Shown: positions 4,760 through 64,000, numbered from the stretch's first letter. The stretch is DNA of 64,000 nucleotides from Mustelus asterias (GCF_964213995.1 NW_027590119.1:2852001-2916000); one strand, 5' to 3'. Numbers and translations: made by a program. The notes: generated by a model from the letters alone, not told the origin.

Positions 4760-5730
4760 GACATGTCAACTATGACTCTGACCAATTTTTACAGGGACAC
4801 TACAAGGGGTGTGAATGTGGCCCAGTCCATCACGCAAATCAGCCTCTTATCCATTGACACTGTCTACATTTCCTATTGCCTCAGAAAAGCAGCCAGCATA
4901 ATCAAGGACCCCACTTATCCTGGACATTCTCTTTTCTATCTTCTTCCATCGGGAAAAAGAGACAAAAGTCTGAGGTCACAAACCAACCGACTCAAGAACA
5001 GCTTCTTCCCTGCTGCTGTCAGACTTTTACAAACAAAGAACAAAGAAAATTACAGCACAGGAACAGGCCCTTCGACCTTTCAAGCCTGCACCGACTATGC
5101 TGCCTGACTGAACTAAAACCCCCTACCCTTCCGGGAACCATATCCCTCCATTCCCATCCTATTCATGTATTTGTCAAGATGCCTCTTAAAAGTCACTGTC
5201 ATATCTGCTTCCACTACCTTCCCTGGCAGCGAGTTCCCGGCACCCACTACTCTCTGTATAAAAAAACTTGCCTCGTACATCTCCTTTAAACCTTGCCCCT
5301 CACACCTTAAACCTGTGCCCCCTAGTAAGTGACTCTTCAACCCTGGGAAAAAGCTTCTGATTATCCACTCTGTCCATGCCCCTCATAATCTTGTAGACTT
5401 CTATCAGGTCGCCCCTCAATCTCCGTTGTTCCAGTGAGAACAAACCAAGTTTCTCCAACCTCTCTTCATAACTAATGCCCTTCATACCAGGCAACATCCT
5501 GGTAAATCTTTTCTGTACCCTCTCCAAAGCCTCCTCCTTTTGAATGGACCGACCTCATATTAAGCTGATCTTTCTCTTCACCCTTTCTGTAACTGTAACA
5601 CTATATTCTGCACTCTCTCCTTTCCTACTCCCCTATGTACTCTATGAACAGTATGATTTATCTGTATACCGCGCAAGAAACAATACTTTTCACTGTATCC
5701 CAATACATGTGACAATAAATCAAATCAAAC
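4760..5730 (+). mobile_element. Rex1/Babar-like LINE 3' end, interrupted by a CR1 fragment
   Basis: AASIIKDPTYPGHSLFYLLPSGKR..SLRSQTNRLKNSFFPAAVRLL. The sequence resumes at about 5540 and ends CATGTGACAATAAATCAAATCAAA. Confidence 0.8.
5029..5537 (-). mobile_element. CR1 LINE 3' end nested in the Rex1-like element
   Basis: ERVQKRFTRMLPGMKGISYEERLEKLGLFSLEQRRLRGDLIEVYKIM and a (TTCTTTG)n-type tail at about 5030-5050. Confidence 0.9.
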
Positions 5731-5754
5731 CCATTGCTGCATTTCCTTCCTGAA

Positions 5755-6470
5755 GCCACATTTGTCCAGTAGGGCCTGTCCTCGGGAGAAAGCGCTGCAG
5801 CTGCCGTTGTGTTGGGTGTTGAGGCGGTGCCGCTAGTTCCTTATTGGGGGTGTTGAAGCCTCCACTGGGTGTGTGGAGCCTCCCCTCCCACCCACTGCCC
5901 CTAACGCTGCCTCCGCTTATCCGCCTCCTCCCCGCCTGAAGATCAGACAAACAAGCGCCTGTCCCTGGACATGAGCCGCACTGCGCATGCTCAACGTCAC
6001 AATGCCCAGGGACTGATTGACGGCAGCTCCGGACCAATAGAGAAAGGGGGCGGGGCTGGAGGACCGAGCGGGAGCGGCTGGTCCTCCAACCAGGGTGAAT
6101 AGAGTGAAGCATGCGCAGTGTGGGTAATGGCGGCGGACGGACGGTTTTAACTCGAATCCGAGATCAGTTCAAGGTAAAGGAGAGCGATGAATGTGGTGGG
6201 TGGGTGGAGAGGCTTCGTAAACATGTTGTTCAAACTCAAACTTCGGGAAAATAACTTCCCGGGCGTCCTGTTGGTACCAAATTGGAGGCGCAACTTGTCG
6301 TGTTGGGCCTGGACTGACGGCCGTCAATCTGTCGGTGGCAATGTGTGTCAGTGCGCATGTGCGGCCGGCATCTTTGTAAGGGGCAATGTGCAGCAGGGTG
6401 CAGGTGCGATCGCCATGTTTGTAGGGGGCGCAGGAGTGTCCACCTTTGTGATGTATGGGACCTGAACCCA
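5755..6470. promoter_or_regulatory. CpG-island promoter between divergent ZNF units 1 (-) and 2 (+)
   Basis: TGCGCATG (NRF1-like), CCAAT, GGGGCGGGG and AATGGCGG (YY1-like) motifs. Homologous to 43930-44380 and 63430-63746. Confidence 0.7.
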
Positions 6471-6571
6471 CTGCCGTCCATGTTGTGCAAGTACATCCAC
6501 CCCGCTGGTAGGGAGGAAATTCCAGCATTTTGACCCAGCGACTGCGAAGGAACGGCGATATATTTCCAAGA

Positions 6572-7382
6572 TGTGGAGATGCCGGTGTTGGATTGGGGTA
6601 AACACAGTAAGAAGTCTCACAACACCAGGTTAAAGTCCAACAGGTTTATTTGGGAGCATAAGCCACTAGGTTTCAGAGCGCTGCTTTTTCATCACGTAAG
6701 TGGGAGTTCTGTTCACAAACAGGGCATATAAAGACACAAACTCAATTTACAAAATAATGGTTGGAATACGAGTCTTTACAGGTAATCAAGTCTTTAAAGG
6801 TACAGACAATGTGAGTGGAGAAAGGGTTAAGCACAGGTTAAAGAAATGTGTATTGTCTCCAGACAGGACAGTTAGTGAGATTTTGCAAGCCCTGGCAAGT
6901 CGTGGGGGTTACAGATAGTGTGACATGAACCCAAGATCCCGGTTGAGGCCGTCCTCGTGTGCGGAACTTGGCTATCAGTTTCTGCTCAGCGACTCTGCGT
7001 TGTCGTGTGTCGTGAAGGCCACCTTGGAGAACGCAGAGACTGATAGCCAAGTTCCGCACACATGAGGACAGCCTCACTAACTGTCCTGGCTGGAGACGAT
7101 ACATATCTCTTTAACCTGCGCTTAACGCTCCCTCCACTTGCATTGTCTGTACCTTTAAGACTTGATTACCTGTAAAGACTCGCATTCCAACCATGATTTT
7201 GTAAATTGAGTTTGTGTCTTTATATGCCCTGTTTGTGAACTGAAATCCCATTCACCTGACGAAGGAGCAGCTCTCCGAAAGCTAGTGGCTTTTGCTACCA
7301 AATAAACCTGTTAGACTTTAAACTGGTGTTGTGAGACTTCTTATTGTGTTTACCCGAGTCCAACACCGGCATCTCCACATCA
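6572..7382. mobile_element. Penelope-like element termini in inverted arrangement
   Basis: 6572-7030 is the reverse complement of the terminal unit at 7035-7382 (CCAAATAAACCTGTT..ACTTTAA..GGTGTTGTGAGACTTCTT). Minus ORF has LQGGLHDTRQRRVAEQKLIAKFRT. Confidence 0.85.
7253..7287 (+). ncRNA. Minimal type-I hammerhead ribozyme motif (Penelope-associated)
   Basis: CAC CTGACGA A GGAG cagct CTCC GAAA GCT A GTG: both catalytic boxes, stem II, palindromic AGCT stem III and CAC/GTG stem I. Confidence 0.75.
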
Positions 7383-10875: not shown

Positions 10876-11639
10876 GGTGCGGGTGTCCTTGTGACTCTCC
10901 AGGCTTGACAATCAGTTCAGTTACAACATAACATGGGTGCGGTCTCTCTGCTGCAATGTATTTTCAGGCTGTTTAACTGGTTAAAGTTCTTTCCACAGTC
11001 ACTCAGGTGTGTGCATGTTTCAGTGTGTGTGTGTCTCGGTGCTTTTCCAGTCACACTGTTTAAAATCTCCTGAAGCAGACAGAGCAGAGAAACATTTCCA
11101 TTCTAGATTCAAAGGTCGATGATATTCAGGTCCCAATGAACTGAGTGACTATGTTAGATTTTGATGTGAAGTTTGGTTTCATATTCGTCTTTAAATTTTC
11201 TGATATCCTGCAAAAGGAATTTACAAAAGTCATCAGTGTCAGTACAGGATAGAAATTCAGAACAGACAATTCTAGTTTCTATGGAACATTCTTTTCTCTC
11301 TCATTCCTCAAAGCTGTAAATCTCCATCCCACACACTCTCCCTCCATTCTCACTCTGCTGTATCTAATATTCACCCTCCCAATTCTCCTGAAGGTGCTGA
11401 TTGAGGCTGATTGACAGATCCATGCTCACTGCTTCCTGTCCTGGACACAGAGAGAGCTGGAAATTTCCATGCAGGCTGCCAGACAGATAACTGTCTACAT
11501 TACTGGAGTAAAAATGTGTGGAATATACAGACCAAATTCACTTCATTCCCTTCAGTTGCTGCAAGTCCCCAATTTTCCCCAGAATGAGGAAAGAAATGGA
11601 AAGGGGGAAACATTGATTTCCTCCCAGATGTTGCCCAGA

Positions 11640-12126
11640 GGAGGAAGTTTCACTCTGAAGCTCATTGGACAACTTCTGCATTGTGACGTCACGATAGAGT
11701 CCTGCCTGAATCAGCCAATAGGAATCACTGTGCTCCGTGTTGATGTCTCCAGGTTCCAGTGCGCAGGCCCGGGCGCGCGGACCCGGGAGCCCCGCCCCCA
11801 CCCATTGTTCCCCTCCCCCTACACCACATCGAGCCAAGGTTTCCAGGCAACCGGCTGGCGGCTCCGGCCAGAGCGAGAAGCCGCTCGGTGATCGCACCCC
11901 CCCCCGCCCCCCCCAGCCCGGGACTGCAAATGTACGAGGGAGAGGGGAAGCTGCGCATGTGCGGGGGAGAACCCACCCTCTGATCTTCATGTTGAGGTGT
12001 TGACCAATGGGAAGAGTTGGAGGACCGGAAGGACTCTGGTCTTCCAGCCAATCAGAGCGCTTTGTGTGAATGAAGATTGATCTTTAGACAGACTCAAACC
12101 TCCTCCTGTCGCCAACACCTGTGAGT
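11640..12126. promoter_or_regulatory. CpG-island bidirectional promoter/first exons of ZNF units 3 (-) and 4 (+)
   Basis: TGACGTCA at about 11684, several CCAAT boxes, TGCGCATGTGCG. Candidate donor CCAACACCT|GTGAGT at 12120/12121. Confidence 0.7.
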
Positions 12127-13994
12127 GGGAAAGATTGGATTGTCCAGCCAGTCCACCATATTGGCCGTTCGCTTTGCGTGTTGGCCAGTATAGTGTGCTC
12201 CAGGCAGGGGGCGGGCAGAGGATAAGGAGTTCAAGGCGGGCTTAATGCGCGCCTTGCGGTGAGCTTTTGGAAATGTGGCCGCTGGGAGGAACGCCTTGGT
12301 CGGCGTGAAGTTTCTGTTTCAAGTGCTTGGGTTCGTGACTTGTGCAAGAACTTTTTGTTTCGGCTGGGGCTTGTTGAATGCTGCTCTCGCTGGGATTCCT
12401 GTGCCTTGAAAGGCGTGGCCCAGGTAGATGCAATCTCGGAAGACCCAAGCCAGGGAGGAGCCATTTGGGAACTATGGTTTCGGAAGGTTCAGCCGCGGAA
12501 GGTGTGACCCCAGACGGTGCAGCCCCAGTGGGTGTGATTTTGGAAGTTCTGGCCCGGAGTGGTGGACTTTGGAGGACTGTAGTTGAGCGTTGTCGACTTC
12601 GGACGGTGGAATGTTGATGGGCGAAGCTCTGGAAGGCGATGCCTCCGAAATGTTTCACAATTGTATGGTTGTTCATGGATTGTTTGTTATTGTAATATGT
12701 GGTTTTCCTGTTATGATAGTTGGTGGTTTGTTCTGGCCCCCGTCTATTTTCTTGCGTTATTTGTGGCCTGGGGGGCATCCCCCCCTGGATAAAGTCACCC
12801 CCGGGGGGTGTGACATCCACTTGGGGAAAGTTCTGGGTGGTGAAGCCCCGGACATAGTAACACCAGAGGGATTTTTATTCTCCGGGAGAAAAATTGGGAA
12901 GGCAGGCCCGAACTGAGTACCCTGGAGAGACTCTCCCACCACCCCGGCTGAAATTCCGGAAGGCAGTCCGGATTGAGTAGGCGGGGTGGTTTCCCCATTT
13001 CCCCCCTCCGGCTGAACATCCGTAAGGTGTAACCCCCGGATATGAGTACCACTGGAGGGTTGCATCCCCCGGCAGGTGGACAAACCCAGGGGACGGTGCC
13101 CTTATGCTTCAGTGTTTATTTTTTTGTTGTGTACAGTTGTAGTGTTGTTAATGTTTGTAGATTTGTAGATTATGATTTGTAAATGGAGGTGTATTTTGAG
13201 GGCAATGCCCTGGAAAACTGTAATTGACGATGAACCCTTCCGAAATGGAAGGTAGTAATTGATAAATGGATGGTGTTAGCCATCGGTAATGTATTTTTCA
13301 TGGATTGTTTGTTATTGTAATATGTGGTTATCCTGTTATGGTAGTTGGTGGTTTGTTCCGGCCCCCGTCTATTTTCTTGCGTTATTTGTGGCCTGGGGGG
13401 CATCCCCCCCTGGATAAAGTCACCCCCGGGGGGTGTGACATCCACTTGGGGAAAGTTCTGGGTGGTGAAGCCCCGGACATAGTAACACCAGAGGGATTTT
13501 TATTCTCCGGGAGAAAAATTGGGAAGGAAGGCCCGAACTGAGTACCCTGGAGAGACTCTCCCACCGCCCCGGCTGAAATTCCGAAAGGGGTCCCGGATTG
13601 AGTAGGCGGGGTGGTTTCCCCCATTTCCCCCCCTCCGGCTGAACATCCGTAAGGTGTAACCCCCGGATATGAGTACCACTGGAGGGTTGCATCCCCCGGC
13701 AGGTGGACAAACCCAGGGGACGGTGCCCTTATGCTTCAGTGTTTATTTTTTTGTTGTGTACAGTTGTAGTGTTGTGTTAATGTTTGTAGATTTGTAGATT
13801 ATGATTTGTAAATGGAGGTGTATTTTGAGGGCAATGCCCTGGAAAACTGTAATTGACGATGAACCCTTCCGAAATGGAAGGTAGTAACTGATAAATGGAT
13901 GGCGTTAGCCATTGGTAATGTATTTTTTTCACATTTGTTCTTTGTGTATTTGTAATTGTTTTGTATTAACGTATTTGTAATAAACAAAAAGAAA
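12127..13994 (+). mobile_element. 1868-bp 5'-truncated non-LTR-type insertion (possibly a Tx1-clade 3' end) with 15-bp TSD
   Basis: Flanked by CCAACACCTGTGAGT (12112-12126) and CCAACATCTGTGAGT (13995-14009). Ends AATAAACAAAAAGAAA. Family assignment is inference only. Confidence 0.7.
12672..13930 (+). repeat. Tandem duplication, two units of about 625-630 bp, inside the insertion
   Basis: TTCATGGATTGTTTGTTATTG starts at 12672 and 13297. The units are near-identical and give duplicated ORF translations. Confidence 0.95.
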
Positions 13995-14084
13995 CCAACA
14001 TCTGTGAGTAAAACACTTTCCTTTCTCCCCCTTTCCATTTCTTTTTTCATTCTGGGGGAAATTGGGGACTTGCAGCAACTGATC

Positions 14085-15475
14085 ATGAGAAATAGAAGCA
14101 GGAGTGGCCACCAGGCCCTTCAAGCCTGTCCCGCCATTCAGTATAATCACAGCTAATCTATTCCGGCCTCAACTCCTTCACAATGCCACTTCCCATAGCC
14201 CTCTATCCCTCAATCTATTAAATATTTATCCACCTCACTTTAAATACTTCTCATCATCCAGCCTCCACCACCCTCTGGGACAGAGAATTCCAGAGATTCA
14301 CCATCCTCTGCGAAAATAAATTTCTGCGCACCTCAGGTTTAAATGACCGACCCTTTATCTTGTAGCTTGTTTGTGATTCTTCCACTTGTGAAAATATCTC
14401 ACCATCTACCCTGTCAATCCCCCAAGGATCTTATCTGTTTCAATAAACTCACCCCTTTGTCTTCTAAACTTGAAAGAATGCAGATCCAGACAATTTATTC
14501 TCTCCTGTCCTCTTATCCCAGGAATTAGCCTGGTGAATCTCCTTTGGACTATTGCCAATGTTACTATATCCTTGTTTAAGTAAGGGGATCAAAACTGTAC
14601 GCAGTGTTCCAGGTGAGGCCTCACCAACACCCTGTGCAGTTATCACAAAACCTCCCTGCTTTTAAATCCAACACCTTTGCCATAAAGGTCAAAATTCCAT
14701 TTTCCTTCTTACCTATTGTGGAACCTGCCTGCTAGCTTTTTGTGATTCATGCACAAGAACACCGAGATTCCTCTATACTTCAATCACCTGCAGCGCCTCT
14801 CCTTTTAGATAATCTCCCTTTTGAAATACATAGGCGGCACGGTGGGACAGTGGTTAGCACTGTTGCCTCACAGCGACAGGGATCCGGATTCGTTTCCCAG
14901 CTTGGGTCACTGTCTGTGAAGTTTGCACGATCTCCCCATATCTGCGTGGGTTTCCTCTGGGTGCTCTGATTTCCTCTCTGTCTGAAAGACGTGCTGGTTC
15001 GGTGCATTGGCCTGAACAGGTGCCAGACTGGTGACTGGGGGAATTTCACAGTAACTTCATTGCAGTGTTACTGTAAGTCTTACTTGTGACGAATAAATAA
15101 ACTTTAACTTTATGATCTCACACTTCCCCAAGTTCAACTCCATTTGCCAGGTTTTTGTCACCCAATCTATCTGGATCCCATTGCAGAATCAAAATATCCT
15201 CATCACAACATGTCCTTCCACCTATCTTTGTACCATTTGTTAACCTTATATTCTGTTCCTTCCTCCAGGTCATTAATTAAATAATGAACAATTGTGAGCC
15301 AAGAACTGATCCCTGTGGTACTCCACTAGTTACATCTTCCCTCTCTGAAAAGGACCCATTTATTCCAACTTTCTGTTTTCTATGTGACGGCCAGTTTTCA
15401 ATCCATGTGAACACACTTCCACAATTCCATGGGCCTTTACTTTATGCGCCAGCCTCTTCTGCGCCACCTTGTCGA
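14085..15475 (-). mobile_element. Degenerate CR1 LINE, interrupted by a SINE
   Basis: FDKVAQKRLAHKVKAHGI and [11 protein letters not shown]-coding sequence. CR1 tail at about 14090. Confidence 0.8.
14832..15110 (+). mobile_element. V-SINE, tail B
   Basis: GGCGGCACGGTGGGACAGTGGTTAGCACTG head. Ends CTTGTGACGAATAAATAAACTTTAACTTT. Confidence 0.8.
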
Positions 15476-15804
15476 ATCCCTGGAGTGCAAAAGGAGGCCA
15501 TTTGGCCCATCTAGTCTGCATCAGCTCTTGAACAGAGCATCTTTCCCAGGCCCTATCGCCATTACCACACATTTTTACCCCACGAATCCCCTAATCTATA
15601 TCTATTGGGACACAAAAGGGGCAATTTAGCATGGCAAATCTACCTAACCCACACATCTTTGGACTGTGGGAGGAAACCAGAGCACCCGGAGGAAACCCAC
15701 GCAGAGAACGTGCAGACTCCACGCAGACAGTGACCCCAGGCTAGAATTGAACCCGGGTCCCTGGTGATGTGAGGCAGCAGTGCTAACCACTGTGCCACCG
15801 TGCT
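15476..15804 (-). mobile_element. HE1-like V-SINE
   Basis: Reverse complement of the SINE head, V core (GGGTTTCCTCCGGGTGCTC) and CR1-type tail. Confidence 0.85.
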
Positions 15805-15905
15805 GACCTTTGTGCCATTCTTACGATTGACTTACTGCTGTTCCTGATGTTGAAAAGGCATCGCACCACCAGCTTTTGAAGGGCAGTTAGGAATGGGGAG
15901 CATAT

Positions 15906-16255
15906 AGGGCGGCATGGTAGCACAGTGGTTAGCACTGCAGCTTCACAGCTCCAGGGTCCTGGGTTCGATTCCCGGCTCGGGTCACTGTCTGTGTGGAGTT
16001 TGCGCGTTCTCCTCGTGTCTGCGTGGGTTTCCTCCGGGTGCTCCGGTTTCCTCCCACAGTCCAAAGATGTGCGGGTTAGGTTGATTGGCCAGGTTAAAAA
16101 TTGCCCCTTAGAATCCTAAAATGCGTAGGTTAGAGGGATTAGCGGGTAAATATGTGGGGGTAGGGCCTGGGTGGGATTGTGGTCGGTGCAGACTCGATGG
16201 GCCGAATGGCCTCCTTCTGCACTGTAGGGTTTCTATGATTCTATGATTTCTATGA
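15906..16255 (+). mobile_element. HE1-like V-SINE, young full-length copy
   Basis: tRNA-like A/B boxes, V core and (TTCTATGA)n tail. Nearly identical to the copy at 33598. Confidence 0.92.
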
Positions 16256-16721
16256 GTGGCCTCGCCAGCGATGCCCACATGCCATAAAAGAATGAAAAAA
16301 AGAGAATTGCCTGTTCTGAATTTCACCCTGGTACTGATTTTGTCAACTCCTTTCACAGGATATTAGAAGGTGAGGATCTACAGTCAAAAGTCTCAAACCA
16401 AACGTCACGTCAAGATCTGGCACAGTCACTGAATTCATCAGGAGCTGATTATCATCAGCTTTGGAATCTAGAAGGAGAAATGTCCATCTCTTCTGTTTGT
16501 CCCAAAAGGGTTGAAACGTCAGTGTGATTGGAAAAGCACCGAGACACACACACACCTGAGTGAGAGTGTTCCAGTGCACTGACTGTGGAAAGAGATTTCA
16601 CTTGTTGCACAACCTGGAAAAAACTGCACAATTTGGACCAGGGAGACCGTGCACCTGTTGTGTGTGTGGACAAGTCTTCAACGAATCGTTAAACTTTGAG
16701 AGGCAAAAGGACAGCAGCACC

Positions 16722-17564
16722 ATGGAGAAACCGTGGCAATGTGAGGACTGTGGGAAGAAATGGCGATTCCCGTCTGAGCTGGAAATTCATCGACGCGTTC
16801 ACACTGGAGAGAGGCCGTTTACCTGCTCAGACTGTGGGAAGGGATTTGCTCATTCATGCAACCTGCTGACACATCAGCGAGTTCACAGCGGGGAGAGGCC
16901 ATTCACCTGTTCTGACTGTGGAAAGGGATTCACTCATTTAACCCACCTCCACACACACAAGCGAGTTCACACTGGGGAGAAACCGTTCTCCTGCTCTCAG
17001 TGCGGGAAGGGATTCTCTCAGTTATCCCACCTTCTGAAGCACCAGCGAGTTCATACCAGGGAGAGGCCTTTCACCTGCTCGGAGTGTGGAAAAACATTCA
17101 CTACTTCATGGAACCTGCTGACACACCAGCGAATTCACACTGGGGAGAAGCCATTCACCTGCTGTGCATGTGGGAAGGGGTTCAGTCGGTTATGCAGCCT
17201 GCAGACACACCAGCGAGTTCACACCGGGCAAAAACCATTCACCTGCTCTGAGTGTGAGAAGGGATTCGCTCAGTTATCCCACCTGCTGTCACACCAGCGA
17301 GTTCACACCGGGGAGAGGCCGTTCGTCTGCACCATGTGTGGGAAGGGATTCAGTGAATCATTCACCCTGCTAATACACCAGCGAGTTCACAAGGACGAGA
17401 GGCCATTCACCTGCTCAGAGTGTGGGATGGGATTCACGAAGTCATCCAACCTGCTGACGCACCAACATGTTCACACAGGGGAGAAGCCGTTCACCTGCTC
17501 TGTGTGTGGGAAGGGATACACTCAATTATGCAGCCTGCGCAGGCACCAGAAAGGTCACAAGTGA
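16722..17564 (+). CDS. C2H2 zinc-finger protein, 10 fingers (unit 4)
   Basis: ORF 16560..17564, ATG of MEKPWQC at 16722. Last-exon acceptor TTTCACAG|GATA at 16358/16359. AATAAA at about 17745 and 17977. Confidence 0.9.
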   Translation: MEKPWQCEDCGKKWRFPSELEIHRRVHTGERPFTCSDCGKGFAHSCNLLTHQRVHSGERPFTCSDCGKGFTHLTHLHTHKRVHTGEKPFSCSQCGKGFSQLSHLLKHQRVHTRERPFTCSECGKTFTTSWNLLTHQRIHTGEKPFTCCACGKGFSRLCSLQTHQRVHTGQKPFTCSECEKGFAQLSHLLSHQRVHTGERPFVCTMCGKGFSESFTLLIHQRVHKDERPFTCSECGMGFTKSSNLLTHQHVHTGEKPFTCSVCGKGYTQLCSLRRHQKGHK

Positions 17565-26536: not shown

Positions 26537-27799
26537 TCACTTGTGAACTCGCTGGTGTCTCTGCAGGCTGGATGATGTACTGAATCCCTTCCCACACTGA
26601 GGGCAGGTGAATGGTCTCTCCCCAGTGTGAATTCGCTGGTGTCTCTTCAGGGCATTTGAATGTCTGAATCCCTTGTCACACACAGTGCAGATGAAGGGCC
26701 TCTCCCCAGTGTGAATTCGCTGGTGTCTCTTCAGGCTGCATAACTGAGTGAATCCTTTCCCACAGTCAGAGCAGGTGAACGGTCTCTCCCTGGTGTGAAC
26801 TCGCTGGTGTGTCAGCAGAATGGTTGAGTGAGTGAATCTTTTCCCACAGTCAGAACAAGTGAATGGCCTCTCTCCAGTGTGAACTCGCTGGTGTCTCTGC
26901 AGGTTGGATAACTGAGTGAATCCCTTCCCACACACAGAGCAGTTGTACGGCCTCTCTCCAGTGTGAACTCGCTGGTGTATCCGCAGGTCAGATAACTGAG
27001 TGAATCTCTTCTCACACACAGAGCAGGTGATTGGCTTCTCCCCGGTGTGAACTCGCTGGTGTGTCCTCAGGGTGGATGACCATTTAAATCTCTTTGTGCA
27101 GTGAGAGCAGCTGAACGGTCTCTCCTCAGTGTGAATGCGCTGGTGAATCATCAGATCTGCAGCACTTTTGAAGCCACTTCCACAGTCAGAACATTTAAAG
27201 GGTCTCTCATTGCTGTGAGTGACTTTGTGTGTCAGCAGGTTGGATGAAGTAGTGAATCCCTTCCCACACACACAGCAGGTGAACGGTTTCTCCCCGGTGT
27301 GAACTCGCTGGTGTCTCCGCAGAATGGTTGAGTGAGTGAATCCTTTCCCACAGTCAGAGCAAGTGTACGGCCTCTCCCCAGTGTGAACCCGTTGATGTGT
27401 CCACAGGTCAGATAACTGAGTGAATCCTTTCCCACAGTCAGAGCAGGTGAATGGCTTCTCCCCAGTGTGAACTCGCTGGTGTCTCCGCAGGCTGGATGAC
27501 CATTTAAATCTCTTTGTGCAGTGAGAGCAGCTGAACGGTCTCTCCCCAGTGTGAATGCGCTGGTGGGACATCAGATCCTGTGAGCTTTTGAAGTCACTCC
27601 CACAGTCAGAGCATTTAAAGGGTCTCTCACTGGTGTGAGTGAGATTGTGACTCAGCAGACCGGGTAACTGAGTGAATCCCTTCCCACACACAGAGCAGGT
27701 GAATGGTTTCTCCCCAGTGTGACTGCGTTGATGAGTTTCCAGCTCAGATGGAAACCTGAATCCCTTCCCACAGTCCCCACATTTCCATGGTTTCTCCAT
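26537..27799 (-). CDS. C2H2 zinc-finger protein, 15 fingers (unit 5)
   Basis: ORF 26537..27904, ATG of MEKPWKC at 27799. 420 aa = 15 x 28. Confidence 0.92.
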
Positions 27800-28165
27800 G
27801 GTGCGGGTGTCCTTGTGACTCTCCTGGTTAAAGCTCTTTCCACACTCAGTGCACTGGAACACTCTCACTCCGGTGTGAGTGTGTCTCGGTGCTTTTCTGG
27901 TCACACTGATGTTTAAAATCTTCTGAAGCAGACAGAACAGAGAAGTTTTCTACTTTTGGATTCAAAGGTCGATTATATACATGTCCCAGTGAATTGAGTG
28001 ACTGTCAGATCTTCAGGTGATCTTCAGGAAAAGTTTGAGATTTCTATCTGTAAATCCTCACCCTCTGATATCCTGTAAAAGGAATTTACAAAAGTCATCA
28101 TTGTCGGTGCAGGAGAGAAATTCAGAACAGACTATTTTAGTTTCTATGGAAAATTCTTTTTTCAT

Positions 28166-28824: not shown

Positions 28825-29162
28825 TAATTCCCCAAAAGCTGTGAATCTCCATCCCACACACTCTCCCTCCATTCTCACTCTGCTGTATCTAATATTCACC
28901 CTCCCAATTCTCCTGAAGGTGCTGATTGAGGCTGATTGACAGATCCATGCTCACTGCTTCCTGTCCTGGACACAGAGAGCTGAAAATCTCCATTCAGGCT
29001 GCCAGACAGATATATGTCGATGTGACAGGACGAACAATGTGTGGAATGTACAGACTGGATTCACTTCCTTTCCCTTCAGTTGCTGCAAATTCCCAATTTC
29101 CCTCAGAATGAGAAAAGAAATGGAAAGGGGAGAAAAGGAAGTCTTTTACTCACAGATGTTGG

Positions 29163-30840
29163 CCTCTTTTTAGGTCAAACCAAAGAAACAAACTCAAGTT
29201 AAGTCAGGACAAAGTAAAAGGGGCAGCTCCCCAAAAGGAGGGGGGGAACAGCCCGAACAAAAATCAAAGTACAAAGGAAACTTAAAAACATCAAATTAAA
29301 ATGTGATTATTAGGGTCGATAACGCACCCCAACCCCTGCGGTGCCCAGCGGGCGCGGAAGGCGTCAACCGCGCCCATGGACACCGCATGCTCCCTCTCCA
29401 GGGACACCTGGCCGCGAACGTAGCCGCGGTAGAGGGGAAGACAGTCAGGATGGACGGCCCCGTCGATCGCCGGCTGCCTGGACCGGTAAATGGCGCGTTT
29501 CGCCAGGAGCAGGTTCACGAGGAGGTCGCCATCCCGACCCTCCCCTCTCCGCACCGGGTGTCCGTAGATCAGGAGCGTGGGACTGAAGTGCAAGCAAAAC
29601 ATTAATAAACGGTTCTTTCGGAAAACAAAAAGGGAGTGCAACCTAAGACACAAAAGAAAGAAATGGTCCACGGACTCCACAAGGCCGCAGAAAGGGCAGT
29701 CTTCGGAGCCCGTGAACCAGTGAATCCTACGGTTGTGCGGCACTGCTGCATGCATCACCCTCCACCCCAGGTCCCCGACGTAATTGGGGGAGATCCCTCC
29801 GTAGAGGGACCTCCGCCGCCCGGCGGCAACAAGGCCCGCCAAGGTGTATCCGGGCGACAGGTGAGGACGCGGTAGTGGAAGGTGTGCAGCAGCAGCCCGC
29901 ACAGGAAACACCTCCGCGCGGTAGAAAAAGGCACGGAGGACATTTCCGTGAGGCGGCTCAGGCTGTGGGGCACCTCACCCAGGGGAGGGGGCTGAGGCTT
30001 TGGGCCAATGTGGAATTCCGCCCGAACAGGGGAACGCTCGGGCGGGATCCCACCGCACGCCTGCGCCGTCTCGAGTTTGCGTGCAGTTTCGGGGCCGAGC
30101 ACGACCGTCCTAAGGTCTAGGATGGCTTTGGCCGCGCGCCAGACGGATGTCCCAACGCGCTCAGCCAGCACGCGGGGACTCATCCAGCCCGCTCCTCCGC
30201 CATCGAGCACGTCCCCGATTCTGGTCACCCCGGCGTCCACAGCCCCCCTCTCCGCCAGCCACCTGAAGTCATACGGCTGGAGGAGCGGATTCCTGAGCAG
30301 CGGCTCTCGCACGAGAGCCGCTACTCCTGACGGGGGAGAGCTGCGTCGCGAGGCGACCTTGTTCCAGACAGTGAGGAGGTCCTGGTAAAAGACGGGCAAC
30401 TCCTGCAGGGTGGTCGAAGCACGCCCCAGTTCGATATGCAGGGGCTGCAAGTCATAACTCAGGCCGTGCCACTGGCGGAAGAAATACGTCGCCATGGCAC
30501 ACCACTGTGGAGGGGGCTCAACGTAAAGGTACCTCTGCAGGGCCTGGAGGCGGAAGGTCGCTATCTGAATGCGGAGGCACACCAGACCTTGTTCGCCCTC
30601 CTCAAGCGGTAGATGCAGAACCACGGCAGGGACCCAGTGCAGTCGATTGTCCCAGAAGAACCGCAGGAGGGTTCTCTGGATATTGGCAACATGCTACCAA
30701 ATAAACCTGTTGGACTTTAACCTGGTGTTGTGAGACTTCTTACTGTACTGGCAACAAAGCCAGGGGGAGGGGTCAAAGGGACCAGCCGGTACCACAGCAT
30801 GGAGGCGAGCAACTGGTTTATGACGAGAACTCGTGCCCGT
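29163..30840 (-). mobile_element. Tx1-clade LINE, 5'-truncated ORF2 3' part plus 3' UTR
   Basis: RVLVINQL..SMLWY, FFW..LHW..VLHLPLEEG.QGL, CPFCGLVESVDHFFLLC zinc knuckle, LAKRAIYRSR, FRARW. One frameshift at about 29800. 3' UTR ends AAAAAGAG. Confidence 0.9.
30692..30748 (+). mobile_element. 57-bp Penelope terminal fragment inserted in Tx1
   Basis: CCAAATAAACCTGTTGGACTTTAACCTGGTGTTGTGAGACTTCTTACTGT flanked by TGGCAACA (30684-30691 / 30749-30756). Confidence 0.8.
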
Positions 30841-31165
30841 GAATGGTCACAAACACTCACCTCTGAAACAATTTAACTGATTTTAATATTAAAATCTCCT
30901 GCTGGAGCCTGCAGCTGGAAAGATATCAGAAGCATTGGCATCAGAGAAAAATCTCCCAGTTGAGGAAATCCCCGGGGAGCGGGGGTGATGTCACTGTGCA
31001 ATTTTAAGTATGTAATGAGATCACAGACAGGAACACAGAATACCTGGGTCTGTGCAAACCAGTGATCACCACACACATTATGGAGGATGTGAGGCTCCTT
31101 GACAGGGTGCAGAGGAGATTTATCAAAATGGTTTCAGGGATGAGGAATTATAGTTACAATGTTAG

Positions 31166-45430: not shown

Positions 45431-46339
45431 TGATTGACAGATCCATGCTCACTGCTTCTTGCCCTGGATGCAGAGAGCTGAAAATTTCCATGCAGGCTGC
45501 CAGACAAATAAATGTCTACATTACTGGAGTAAAAATGTGTGGAATATACAGACCGAATTCACTTCACTCCCTTCAGTTGCTGCAAGTCCCCAATTTCCCC
45601 AGAATGAGAAAAGAAATGGAAAGGGGGAAACATTGATTTCCTCCCAGATGTTGTCCAGAAGAGGAAGTTTCAATCTGAAGCTCATTGGACAACTTCCGCA
45701 TTGTGACGTCACAATGGAGCCTGCCTGAATCAGCGAATAGGAATCTCTCTTCCGACATCAAGAGCTGATGTTTCTTGTCTCGATGACCCTTTGTCAAAGC
45801 TCTGAAACATCAGTTCTTTTCTCTCCATACAGATGCTGCCAGACCTGCTGAGAATGGGGAGACAGTGTGTGGGATGGAGATTTACAGCTTTTGGGGAATG
45901 AGAGAGGCAAGAATGTTCCATAGAAATTGTCTGTTCTGAATTTCTATGCTGTACTGACACTGATGACTTTTGTAAACTCGTTTTACAGGATATTGAAAGA
46001 GGAATCACAGGCCGAAATCTCAAACGTCATGTCTAGACGTGACAGAGTCATATTCCTTGGGACCTCAATATCATCGGACTTTGAATCCAGAAGGAGAAAT
46101 GATTGTCCAGTCTGTCGATTTGAAAAGATTTGAAATGTCAGTGTGAGTGAAAAAGCATCAACACACTGCCACACTTGAGTGAGAGTGTTCCAATGCACTG
46201 ACTAAAGAGCTTTAACCAGTTACACAGTCTGAATAAATATCACACCATTCACAGCGGGGAGAGACTGTAATCTTGTTCTGAGTGTGGGCGAAGTTTCAAC
46301 TAATTGTCCAGTCAAGAGAGAGGTAAGGACACCTGCACC

Positions 46340-63349: not shown

Positions 63350-63746
63350 AAGCCCCGCAGCTGCAAACCAGGGAGCTGACAATGATTCTGAAGGGTTTGC
63401 GGATCCACAAAGTGTTTCCAAATCCTCCCAGCCACCGCCTAACGCTGACTCCGCTTCTCCGGGACAAACAAGCGCCAAGGACAGCAATGACACTGCGCAT
63501 GCTCCACATCACAATGCCCGGGAGCTGATTGACGCCAGCTCCGGACCAATAGGAAGAGGGGGCGGGACTGGAGGACCGAGCGGGAGCGGCTGGTCCTCCA
63601 ACCAATCGGAGTGAATGAGGGGCGGGACCTGAAGCATGCGCAGTGCGGGTAATGGCGGCGGCGGACGGACGGTTTCAACTTGGAAGCGAGAACAATACAA
63701 GGTAGAGGGCGGCGCGCGGGGAATGATAAATGTGGCGGGTGGGTGG
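63350..63746. promoter_or_regulatory. CpG-island promoter of unit 9
   Basis: Near-identical to 43850-44244. Confidence 0.7.
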
Positions 63747-64000
63747 CCTTCAAAAAGAATACGGCCCGGCCGGACATCTTAGAGGCCGCGACAATGGCTG
63801 AGGGGCCGACAACCCCAGCCATTGCCTTGACACAGGCCTCGATGGACATGTCGGGGTGGGCGTAGCACTTAACCCCGAGCTGCCGCGTGAGCAACGAAAA
63901 AGGTGGCAGGGCCTTGGGAGCGGCGGGGGCTCTGGTAGCCGCCACGCCCGCATAGGTGGGCCGAGAAGGCTCTGCCACGGCAGGGCGTATAAGAGGAGGG
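63747..64000 (-). mobile_element. Tx1-clade LINE ORF1 N-terminal fragment (runs off the window)
   Basis: TYAGVAA..LTRQLGVKC..MSIEACVKAMAGVVGPSAIVAASKMSGRAVFFLK, typical of the Tx1 ORF1 start. Confidence 0.8.

What the first reader, a model, noticed from the sequence alone, without database searches (positions are those of the whole stretch)
29148..30860. A Tx1 LINE ends at the same splice-donor sequence in a second ZNF paralog: candidate ZNF-targeting Tx1 system
Seen: on the minus strand the Tx1 3' end ..CTAAAAAGAG(G) abuts CCAACATCT|GTGAGTAAAA (29162-29148). This is the same position and orientation as the 12127-13994 insertion, though the two 3' UTRs are unrelated. Its 5' junction also lies 14 nt after another GTGAGT (30860-30855), but no TSD is preserved. 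The two paralogs whose site reads CAACATCTGGGAGG (about 11620-11633, 45640-45653) are empty. Known: Tx1-clade endonucleases are often sequence-specific for multicopy targets (U2 snRNA, tRNA arrays, microsatellites, other TEs). Inference: a Tx1 lineage targets the first exon/intron junction of an expanded ZNF family. I do not know this target from prior descriptions.
Basis: partly seen in the sequence, partly recalled or inferred. Interest (0 to 1): 0.8.

Follow-up and report, generated by a model that had tools for sequence, protein, structure and literature searches.

The report
LINE homing into zinc-finger first exons
A jumping-gene family related to the frog element Tx1, and a non-coding hitch-hiker, have landed many separate times at one exact base at the end of the first exon of a large zinc-finger gene family; many landings copy the splice signal so the insert would likely be spliced out, and the landing spot likely depends on both the enzyme and the RNA's read-through tail.

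Summary
Confirmed, with corrections. 29163-30840 (-) is a 5'-truncated Tx1L-lineage LINE (family A) abutting CCAACATCT|GTGAGT, a donor used in relatives' probable-RNA contigs. The 12127-13994 insert (B) is non-coding, not a Tx1. Targeting is real but relaxed: 111 of 1679 A 3' ends sit on this site (0.002 expected); 52 of 98 listed sites carry A or B; 40 fetched loci give at least 14 independent truncation points. Other A copies are dispersed at degenerate look-alikes. The donor itself is not the signal: donor-less GCAACATCTGGGAGG sites are also hit, and a young intact lineage inserts about 50 nt upstream. A 13-17 bp duplication regenerates the donor, so inserts become intronic. This copy is one old insertion, duplicated and recombined; its 5' GTGAGT is probably incidental. 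Sub-lineages of A and B inherit the first target bases of their resident copies, which suggests read-through-RNA pairing; enzyme drift is the rival. The scan already noted this system on other pieces of this genome. I found no paper describing it. New variant of a known kind.

The parts
29163..30840 (-). 5'-truncated Tx1L-lineage LINE, family A: C-terminal ORF2 remnant plus U-rich 3' UTR ending AAAAAGAGG, no poly(A)
   Evidence: tblastn to Tx1L ORF2 E 2e-73; 90-93% identical to full-length copy L133 positions 5435-6829; junction placed
29148..29162 (-). Target site CCAACATCT|GTGAGT: end of non-coding exon 1 and splice donor (GT at 29153-29152) of the ZNF gene at 26537-27949
   Evidence: homologous donor at 12121 is used in probable-RNA contigs
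30692..30745 (.). Short piece of another repeat inserted later into the LINE
   Evidence: gap in the match to full-length copies; absent from L024
30855..30914 (-). Candidate 54-nt exon and GTGAGT of the upstream block, 14 nt before the 5' junction; not a TSD; could still serve as a donor that skips the LINE (untested)
   Evidence: L138 has GGAGAG here
26537..28072 (-). Exon 2 of the host ZNF gene (acceptor AG 28074-28073; C2H2 array)
12127..13994 (+). Family B non-coding insert (1.87 kb, internal 630-bp duplication), young, same nick position as A
   Evidence: no protein homology
12112..12126 (+). 5' TSD copy: exon-1 end and regenerated donor (GT at 12121-12122)
   Evidence: contigs of runs X2 and X3 leave the genome sequence at 12121
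13995..14009 (+). 3' TSD copy followed by host intron 1
12022..12120 (+). Non-coding exon 1 of the plus-strand ZNF gene (minimum extent)
   Evidence: a 640-nt X3 contig of depth 9.48 covers 12022-12121 and 16361-16700
16359..17564 (+). Exon 2 of that ZNF gene (acceptor AG 16357-16358; C2H2 array)
11620..11634 (-). Empty donor-less site variant GCAACATCTGGGAGG; this variant is occupied elsewhere in the genome
45640..45654 (-). Empty donor-less site variant ACAACATCTGGGAGG
63744..63988 (-). Fragment of family A ORF1 upstream of another ZNF paralog
   Evidence: 85% to L133 positions 912-1158

Best explanation
This is a broken copy of a Tx1L-lineage LINE whose family inserts repeatedly, in sense orientation, at one base near the end of non-coding exon 1 of hundreds of C2H2 zinc-finger genes, likely because its endonuclease reads the sequence just upstream while the RNA's read-through tail likely pairs with the first bases downstream. 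Inferred steps: (1) the APE endonuclease would nick the bottom strand at TTyyyCmTgycn|nCAA, of which the ZNF exon end is the best multicopy match. (2) The RNA has no poly(A); it would run on into the flank of its source copy, and those few bases would anneal to the nicked primer, so each sub-lineage prefers targets that start like its source's flank. (3) A second nick 13-17 bp downstream gives a TSD that rebuilds exon end plus GTGAGT ahead of the insert (shown), so the insert would be spliced out with intron 1 and would be tolerated. (4) Complete copies there would be transcribed from the ZNF promoter; captured exon-1 leaders are shown. (5) Each insertion recreates the target, giving stacks and head-to-tail arrays (shown), which ZNF duplication and recombination then multiply. 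Non-coding family B likely borrows the same enzyme.
For: Identity: APE + RT, 53% identity over 97% of the query to Xenopus Tx1L ORF2, ORF1 zinc knuckle. Hotspot: 111 of 1679; 46 A ends and 6 B ends before 98 listed ZNF-type sites (hand count); 55 of the first 100 B ends (hand count); at least 14 truncation classes in 22 of 40 loci, including inserts of 22-386 bp with TSD, plus 12-15 bp stubs with TSD. Motif: in 70 unbiased A junctions on C1-C3, +2 is C in 70, +3 is A in 65, +4 is A in 49. Upstream 12-mer matches the ZNF consensus at 4.6 of 12 for A (n=23) and 4.75 for CC-type B (n=8), against 2.96 background (p 8e-7 and 1e-3). Tail inheritance: the CCTTAAAAGAGG variant is followed by C in 16 of 16 (11 of 11 against 9 of 59 in the unbiased set, p 8e-8), and the base is in the 5' TSD copy too. 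The TTTAC lineage starts TCT at dispersed sites and sits at TCTCTCTGAA in exon 1, although the stretch aligned to the Tx1L hairpin loop is the same as in copies with GCAA or ACA targets. A 12-row B clade (94/85 support) has only TCC targets, like its resident copies in a solo-LTR-like repeat; 5 of 6 TSD-verified TC targets match that flank at 7-9 of 10 bases. Promoter use: B units at C26 and C13, tRNA-Val-headed A copies and the intact lineage carry ZNF exon-1 pieces at their 5' ends. Donor use.
Against: About 93% of A 3' ends are not at this site, below the 20% bar for 'target specific' in PMC4494074. Only 21 of 83 examined A copies kept a TSD, and 0 of 16 A-start copies did. Several ZNF-site inserts delete the donor instead of copying it (L136, L141, L145, L146), so step 3 is not universal. 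Many occupied sites are duplicates: 30 loci of one 3' variant collapse to about 4 junction classes. The TCT lineage's endonuclease differs from its nearest relatives at residues 15, 113-114 and 229, so enzyme drift could explain its shift. A sister Tx1 family with intact ORF2 targets the same LTR-like repeat, and TC-type B sites lack the ZNF-like upstream motif (3.2 of 12, n=6), so a different enzyme may move them. 2 of 11 TC-target B copies lack the clade's two diagnostic changes. No transcript from an occupied allele was seen. Bootstraps in both trees had not converged.
Confidence: 0.6

Rival explanations
1. Same hotspot, but target choice is set by the protein alone. Lineages differ because their endonucleases drifted, and B sub-lineages follow whichever Tx1 enzyme is expressed with them.
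For: Upstream consensus implies protein read-out; Tx1L endonuclease nicks its target specifically in vitro (PMC1950540 passages); lineage-specific residues exist; an intact sister family targets the LTR-like repeat.
Against: Endonucleases 94-96% identical with the same loop stretch go with TCT, GCA, ACA and CCA targets. B bodies of the two target classes differ by about two changes in 345 nt. TC-type B targets start TCC like B's own resident flank, not TAC like the young sister family's.
Confidence: 0.25
2. A weak nCAA preference plus open germline promoters, with selection keeping only insertions that land just inside the intron.
For: The core motif is short; ZNF promoters are CCAAT- and GC-rich; intronic placement is the least harmful outcome.
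Against: Single-base precision in the 3' junctions at a site that holds about 1 in 15 of all A ends; dispersed targets resemble this exon end upstream as well; the exonic site 50 nt upstream and donor-deleting inserts are also common.
Confidence: 0.08
3. A few chance insertions multiplied by segmental duplication and gene conversion of the ZNF clusters.
For: True for this very copy (L001-L005, L007, L023, L024, L138, L149 and others) and for mixed junctions in B arrays.
Against: At least 14 truncation points joined to host exon 1 in 40 loci; stubs of 12-24 bp with their own TSD; B 5' ends 100% identical in host exons that differ from one another.
Confidence: 0.04
4. The element is guided to 5' splice sites as such, for example by tethering to the splicing machinery or by reading GTGAGT.
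For: The TSD ends at or near intron +6 in all 30 young B 5' ends.
Against: Donor-less sites are hit (21 of 100 listed); dispersed targets show no GTGAG consensus; the young lineage inserts in mid-exon.
Confidence: 0.03

Closest known systems
Xenopus laevis Tx1L (YTX2_XENLA, P0004), target Tx1D
   Same: APE-RT ORF2 48-53% identical; inserts at a fixed position in a multicopy sequence; its endonuclease is sequence-specific (PMC1950540, passages).
   Different: Tx1L targets a DNA transposon and is described as stringent; here the target is exon 1 of host protein-coding genes and most copies are dispersed at degenerate sites.
Crocodilian Tx1-Mar, Tx1-8_Crp, Tx1-4_AMi, Tx1-9_AMi and SINEU-3 (PMC4494074, passages and section 15)
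   Same: Target preference rather than strict specificity; non-autonomous partner using the same site; tandem insertions around a TSD; 5' extensions taken from the flank, with co-transcription proposed. The LTR-targeting sister family seen here parallels Tx1-8_Crp.
   Different: Their targets are transposons or microsatellites; B is 1.2-1.9 kb with no snRNA head; no donor regeneration appeared in the passages read.
Keno and Utopia (U2 snRNA gene), Kibi, Koshi (PMC4640811 and PMC4494074, passages)
   Same: Multicopy host target, precise 3' junction, variable 5' junction.
   Different: Targets are RNA genes or microsatellites, and insertion disrupts the copy; here the TSD can leave exon 1 and its donor intact.
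R1Bm and SART1 tail-target annealing; R2 co-transcription (PMC7265360 passages; Anzai 2005 cited there, not held)
   Same: 3' RNA bases that match the target are proposed to anneal and start reverse transcription; host promoter drives the element.
   Different: Other clades, fixed rDNA or telomere targets; lineage-by-lineage inheritance of target prefix was not in the passages read.

Membership tests
Tx1 clade non-LTR retrotransposon (family A) | ORF2 with APE-type endonuclease followed by RT | tested here: met
   P0001 from L271: PF03372 E 3e-10, PF00078 E 2e-36; open frames of 1303-1304 codons in young copies
Tx1 clade non-LTR retrotransposon (family A) | Closest named protein is a Tx1 ORF2 | tested here: met
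   YTX2_XENLA 53% over 97% of P0001; 48% over 1292 aa for an intact copy
Tx1 clade non-LTR retrotransposon (family A) | ORF1 with CCHC zinc knuckle | tested here: met
   PF00098 E 1e-4 in L270, 1e-3 in L272
Tx1 clade non-LTR retrotransposon (family A) | RT tree placement with named Tx1 families (Keno, Kibi, Koshi, Tx1-Mar) | not tested
   No named reference sequence other than Tx1L was returned by the tools used
Tx1 clade non-LTR retrotransposon (family A) | TPRT hallmarks: fixed 3' end, 5' truncation, TSD | tested here: met
   TSD in 21 of 83, mostly 13-17 bp; lengths 11 bp to about 7 kb
Target-specific family (over 20% of flanks in one sequence type; PMC4494074) | Family A as a whole at the exon-end site | tested here: not met
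   111 of 1679 = 6.6% with strict patterns
Target-specific family (over 20% of flanks in one sequence type; PMC4494074) | Family B at the exon-end site; TTTAC lineage at the upstream exon-1 site | tested here: met
   B 55 of first 100 listed of 204; TTTAC about 50 of first 100 listed of 195, 15 of them one tandem run; hand counts, arrays and duplicates included
Sequence-specific endonuclease (Tx1L type) | Purified endonuclease nicks the target | not testable with these tools
   Only the genomic consensus was measured
Tx1 element (family B, 12127-13994) | Coding homology to Tx1 ORF1 or ORF2 | tested here: not met
   No tblastn hit below E 1 against 7 Tx1 ORF2 proteins, no significant blastn hit to A; no Pfam hit in three sense frames of the first 1170 bp
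Non-autonomous retroposon moved by Tx1 (family B) | Same nick, same TSD length, same upstream motif, stacking with A | tested here: met
SINE in the strict sense (family B) | Head derived from tRNA, 5S, 7SL or snRNA | tested here: not met
   No Rfam match at gathering score in L252, which holds the window's B 5' end

The most novel reading that the evidence does not exclude
A vertebrate LINE lineage uses protein-coding zinc-finger genes as a self-renewing home: it borrows their promoter, rebuilds their splice donor so it hides in intron 1, and carries a heritable memory of its target in the read-through tail of its RNA, so that one off-target landing in a transcribed repeat founds a sub-lineage with a new target. 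That would be a natural, tail-guided way of retargeting an APE-type retrotransposon, and a conflict played out in the gene family thought to police transposons.
Probability: 0.4. Interest if true: 0.88.

Novelty: new variant of a known kind. Interest (0 to 1): 0.7.

Why it matters
In the papers read, Tx1 targets are snRNA and other RNA genes, microsatellites and other transposons; a protein-coding gene family's first exon was not among them. About half of the listed sites of this ZNF family carry an insert, so the element shapes the 5' ends of a family that is proposed to repress transposons (PMC10547256, passages). The genome holds closely related lineages, several with intact ORF2, that hit three different targets (exon end, mid-exon, an LTR-like repeat), plus one passenger that uses two. 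This makes an old question directly testable: how much of LINE target specificity comes from the endonuclease and how much from RNA-DNA pairing, and how targets switch. If the tail steers, it also bears on retargeting LINEs for gene insertion.

Tried and rejected
No RNA holder on record was listed for the window; the runs used are guessed RNA from related organisms, kept as contigs, so they show a donor in paralogs, not expression of these alleles. Laying on 11150-16700 was swamped by SINEs and showed no joint table row for the intron; the splice was read by matching contig length and depth across. TSD asymmetry as proof of RNA templating was rejected: the 3' copies were selected by my patterns, and B arrays mix junction variants in a way recombination or multi-unit copying explains. 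The 65 of 65 ZNF-site score of the GTTTTGACCTAAAAGAG variant was rejected as independent evidence: 30 of them collapse to about 4 junction classes. 'Complete copies occur only in ZNF clusters' holds for the 35 matches to one 5' end (27 of the 30 fetched were read, all but one behind the site or a copy of it) but not in general: intact ORF2s lie on large contigs, and of 10 examined, 7 were the sister family, 2 were TCT-lineage copies in a CCAAT satellite and 1 was 5'-truncated. The five ACAACATCTG ZNF copies are one 133-bp event, not source elements. The pattern CCAACAYCTGTGAGT also hits an unrelated dispersed repeat (most of L031-L060), so its 889 matches are not a site count. No autonomous element with B's 3' end was found. 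Folding of the 3' ends was not significant (z -1.5 and -0.1). Anzai 2005 and Christensen 2000 are not held. No structure prediction was run. Supplements of PMC4494074 (flank figures S3-S5) were not read and could bear on the novelty claim; Repbase could not be searched.

Full report
Setting. The window is G000:C87:2852001-2916000 in a 3.68-Gb genome. It holds several C2H2 arrays on both strands. The organism was not determined; earlier notes call it shark-like and the nearest nucleotide-age relatives of the protein were not sought.

The observation. The minus strand reads ...GACCTAAAAAGAGG then CCAACATCTGTGAGTAAAA at 29162-29148. The 1.68 kb upstream matches Xenopus Tx1L ORF2 residues 800-1292 (E 2e-73) and a 6.8-kb copy elsewhere at 90-93%. 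Homology stops at 30840, 14 nt after a GTGAGT. A natural frame from a longer copy has APE and RT domains and is 53% identical to Tx1L ORF2. The other insert, 12127-13994 (family B), ends at the same base and has a 15-bp TSD, but shows no homology to Tx1 proteins, family A or Pfam.

Is the site a real donor? In coded runs of related organisms, guessed to be RNA and kept as contigs, a 640-nt contig of depth 9.48 (X3) covers 12022-12121 and 16361-16700. An X2 contig of depth 13.6 leaves at 12121 and one of the same depth enters at 16359. These are the GT at 12121 and the AG at 16357-16358. The unlabelled run X15 did not show this joint. The contigs are about 90% identical, so they speak for paralogs or orthologs, not for the occupied allele.

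How often is the site hit? The exact A end occurs 1679 times; 111 abut the strict site. With about 720 sites, 0.0002 are expected at random and 0.002 if only nCA positions count. Of the first 100 of 538 site matches, I count by hand 46 preceded by an A end, 6 by a B end, 46 by host exon and 2 unrelated. B: 55 of the first 100 of 204 listed ends are at the site. Listings run in contig order, so these shares are samples, not totals. Duplication inflates them: the finding's own junction recurs in many blocks, some with a different 3' gene, which explains the missing TSD by recombination inside the element. Independence is still clear. Among 40 fetched loci, 22 have a 5' end joined to host exon 1 or to a previous insert, in 14 classes from 22 bp to full length; the other 18 are disrupted or unresolved. 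Stubs of 12-15 bp carry their own 15-bp TSD. All 30 fetched young B 5' ends follow the site, in differing host exons or behind another B.

What is recognised? In 70 unbiased junctions from contigs C1-C3 (one of them ZNF-like) the flank reads n-C(70)-A(65)-A(49), then nothing. In 23 TSD-bearing dispersed A copies the 12 bases upstream match the ZNF consensus at 4.6 against 2.96 in 3900 background nCA sites (p 8e-7), mainly T at -12 and -11, C at -7, T at -5; 8 CC-type B copies give 4.75 (p 1e-3). Six of the 23 came from the best-hit set rather than the unbiased set, and 62 of 83 A copies had no TSD and could not be scored. So dispersed targets are degenerate ZNF sites. The donor is not needed: 21 of 100 listed occupied sites read GCAACATCTGGGAG, in at least three junction classes.

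Consequence for the host. Where a TSD forms, the upstream copy restores exon end and GTGAGT and the insert starts near intron +7. It would be removed with intron 1 (inferred). Several inserts delete the donor instead. The downstream copy is a fresh target, giving A-on-B and B-on-A stacks and arrays of up to six B units; unequal exchange probably contributes, as junction variants are mixed within arrays.

Promoter borrowing. B units in arrays at C26 and C13, away from ZNF clusters, start with a piece of ZNF exon 1, with the donor at C26. A tRNA-Val-headed A subfamily has an exon-1 piece between the tRNA and the element. The young lineage marked by TTTAC (195 matches; 99% identical copies, open frames of 1303-1304 codons) inserts 47-51 nt upstream in the same exon and carries a diverged exon-1 copy as its leader. 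Transcription through exon 1 is the simplest source (inferred).

Target inheritance. On a 96-row tree of A 3' ends the first flank base is clustered (27 changes against 56 shuffled). The CCTT variant is followed by C in 16 of 16, and the base is present in the 5' TSD copy, so it belongs to the target. TTTAC copies mostly start TCT at dispersed sites (TSD confirmed in 4 of 9 fetched). An intact copy 98% identical to them sits at a GCAAC site; its endonuclease is 95.5% identical and has the same stretch at the Tx1L hairpin loop, but differs at residues 15, 113-114 and 229 along with two ACA-target copies. On a 56-row B tree a 12-row clade (94/85) has only TCC targets; its resident copies lie in a roughly 330-bp solo-LTR-like repeat at TCCCTGATTG, and 5 of 6 TSD-verified TC targets match that flank at 7-9 of 10. 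Nine of 11 TC-target copies share two diagnostic changes that 4 CC-type copies lack. Against a pure tail model: a sister Tx1 family, 75-86% identical to A, targets this repeat (179 pattern matches, about two thirds of 30 fetched loci showing it), has intact young members at a TACCTGATGAG variant, and TC-type B sites lack the ZNF-like upstream motif. I read this as enzyme choosing the nick and tail choosing which nick is used; enzyme drift with co-expression remains open. Both trees had unconverged bootstraps.

Literature. Searches (listings and abstract starts) gave no paper on a LINE targeting ZNF first exons or splice donors. Read as passages: PMC4494074 (plus section 15), PMC4640811, PMC1950540, PMC7265360, PMC10547256 (0 occurrences of Tx1). 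Kojima and Fujiwara 2004, Anzai 2005 and Christensen 2000 were seen only as citations. Repbase and the supplements were not seen. Earlier notes of this scan describe the same system on other pieces of this genome; they are not independent support.

Verdict. A real, relaxed-specificity Tx1 system with a new kind of target. The finding's own copy is an old, duplicated and recombined member. Targeting is shown; donor regeneration is shown in sequence; splicing-out, promoter use and tail pairing are inferred. New variant of a known kind, interest 0.7.

Noticed in passing
window:31166-36199: Young Gypsy-type LTR element (protease, RT, RNase H, integrase; 298-bp LTRs 99.7% identical) inserted in the block upstream of the LINE; absent from duplicates L138 and L149.
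   Followed up: partly
window:58327-58809 (-): Open frame with an immunoglobulin V-set domain (E 1e-17) inside the ZNF cluster.
   Followed up: no
L337-L366, L443-L456 (G000, many contigs): Sister Tx1 family, with intact young members, inserting with 14-17 bp TSDs at a fixed base of a roughly 330-bp solo-LTR-like repeat, next to its CCAAT box.
   Followed up: partly
L162, L164, L165 (G000:C23), also L124, L131: tRNA-Val(GAC)-headed full-length A subfamily, with a ZNF exon-1 piece between the tRNA and the element in most copies.
   Followed up: partly
L141:2851-3060; also L374, L377: At the ZNF site a B end is followed by a foreign piece with a tRNA gene (ARAGORN: Asp) and a short A 3' stub: a template-switch chimera.
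   Followed up: partly
L453 (G000:C12:48021210-48022310, minus): A sequence that looks like 7SK RNA (recalled, not tested) lies at the sister family's target between two TSD copies and ends in a Tx1 3' stub; L345 has a tRNA-like piece placed the same way.
   Followed up: no
L439-L442 (G000:C21): Two intact TCT-lineage copies sit in a CCAAT-type satellite.
   Followed up: no
G000:C89:2431509-2433796: Fifteen listed copies of an A 3' end plus exon-like flank at about 132-bp spacing: an insertion junction turned into a tandem repeat.
   Followed up: no
L063-L328 (A-start copies): None of 16 dispersed copies whose flank starts with A kept a TSD, against 21 of 67 for the rest; unexplained.
   Followed up: no
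window:11640-12110: Head-to-head ZNF pair sharing a short GC- and CCAAT-rich promoter; one partner has the donor-less site, the other carries B.
   Followed up: partly
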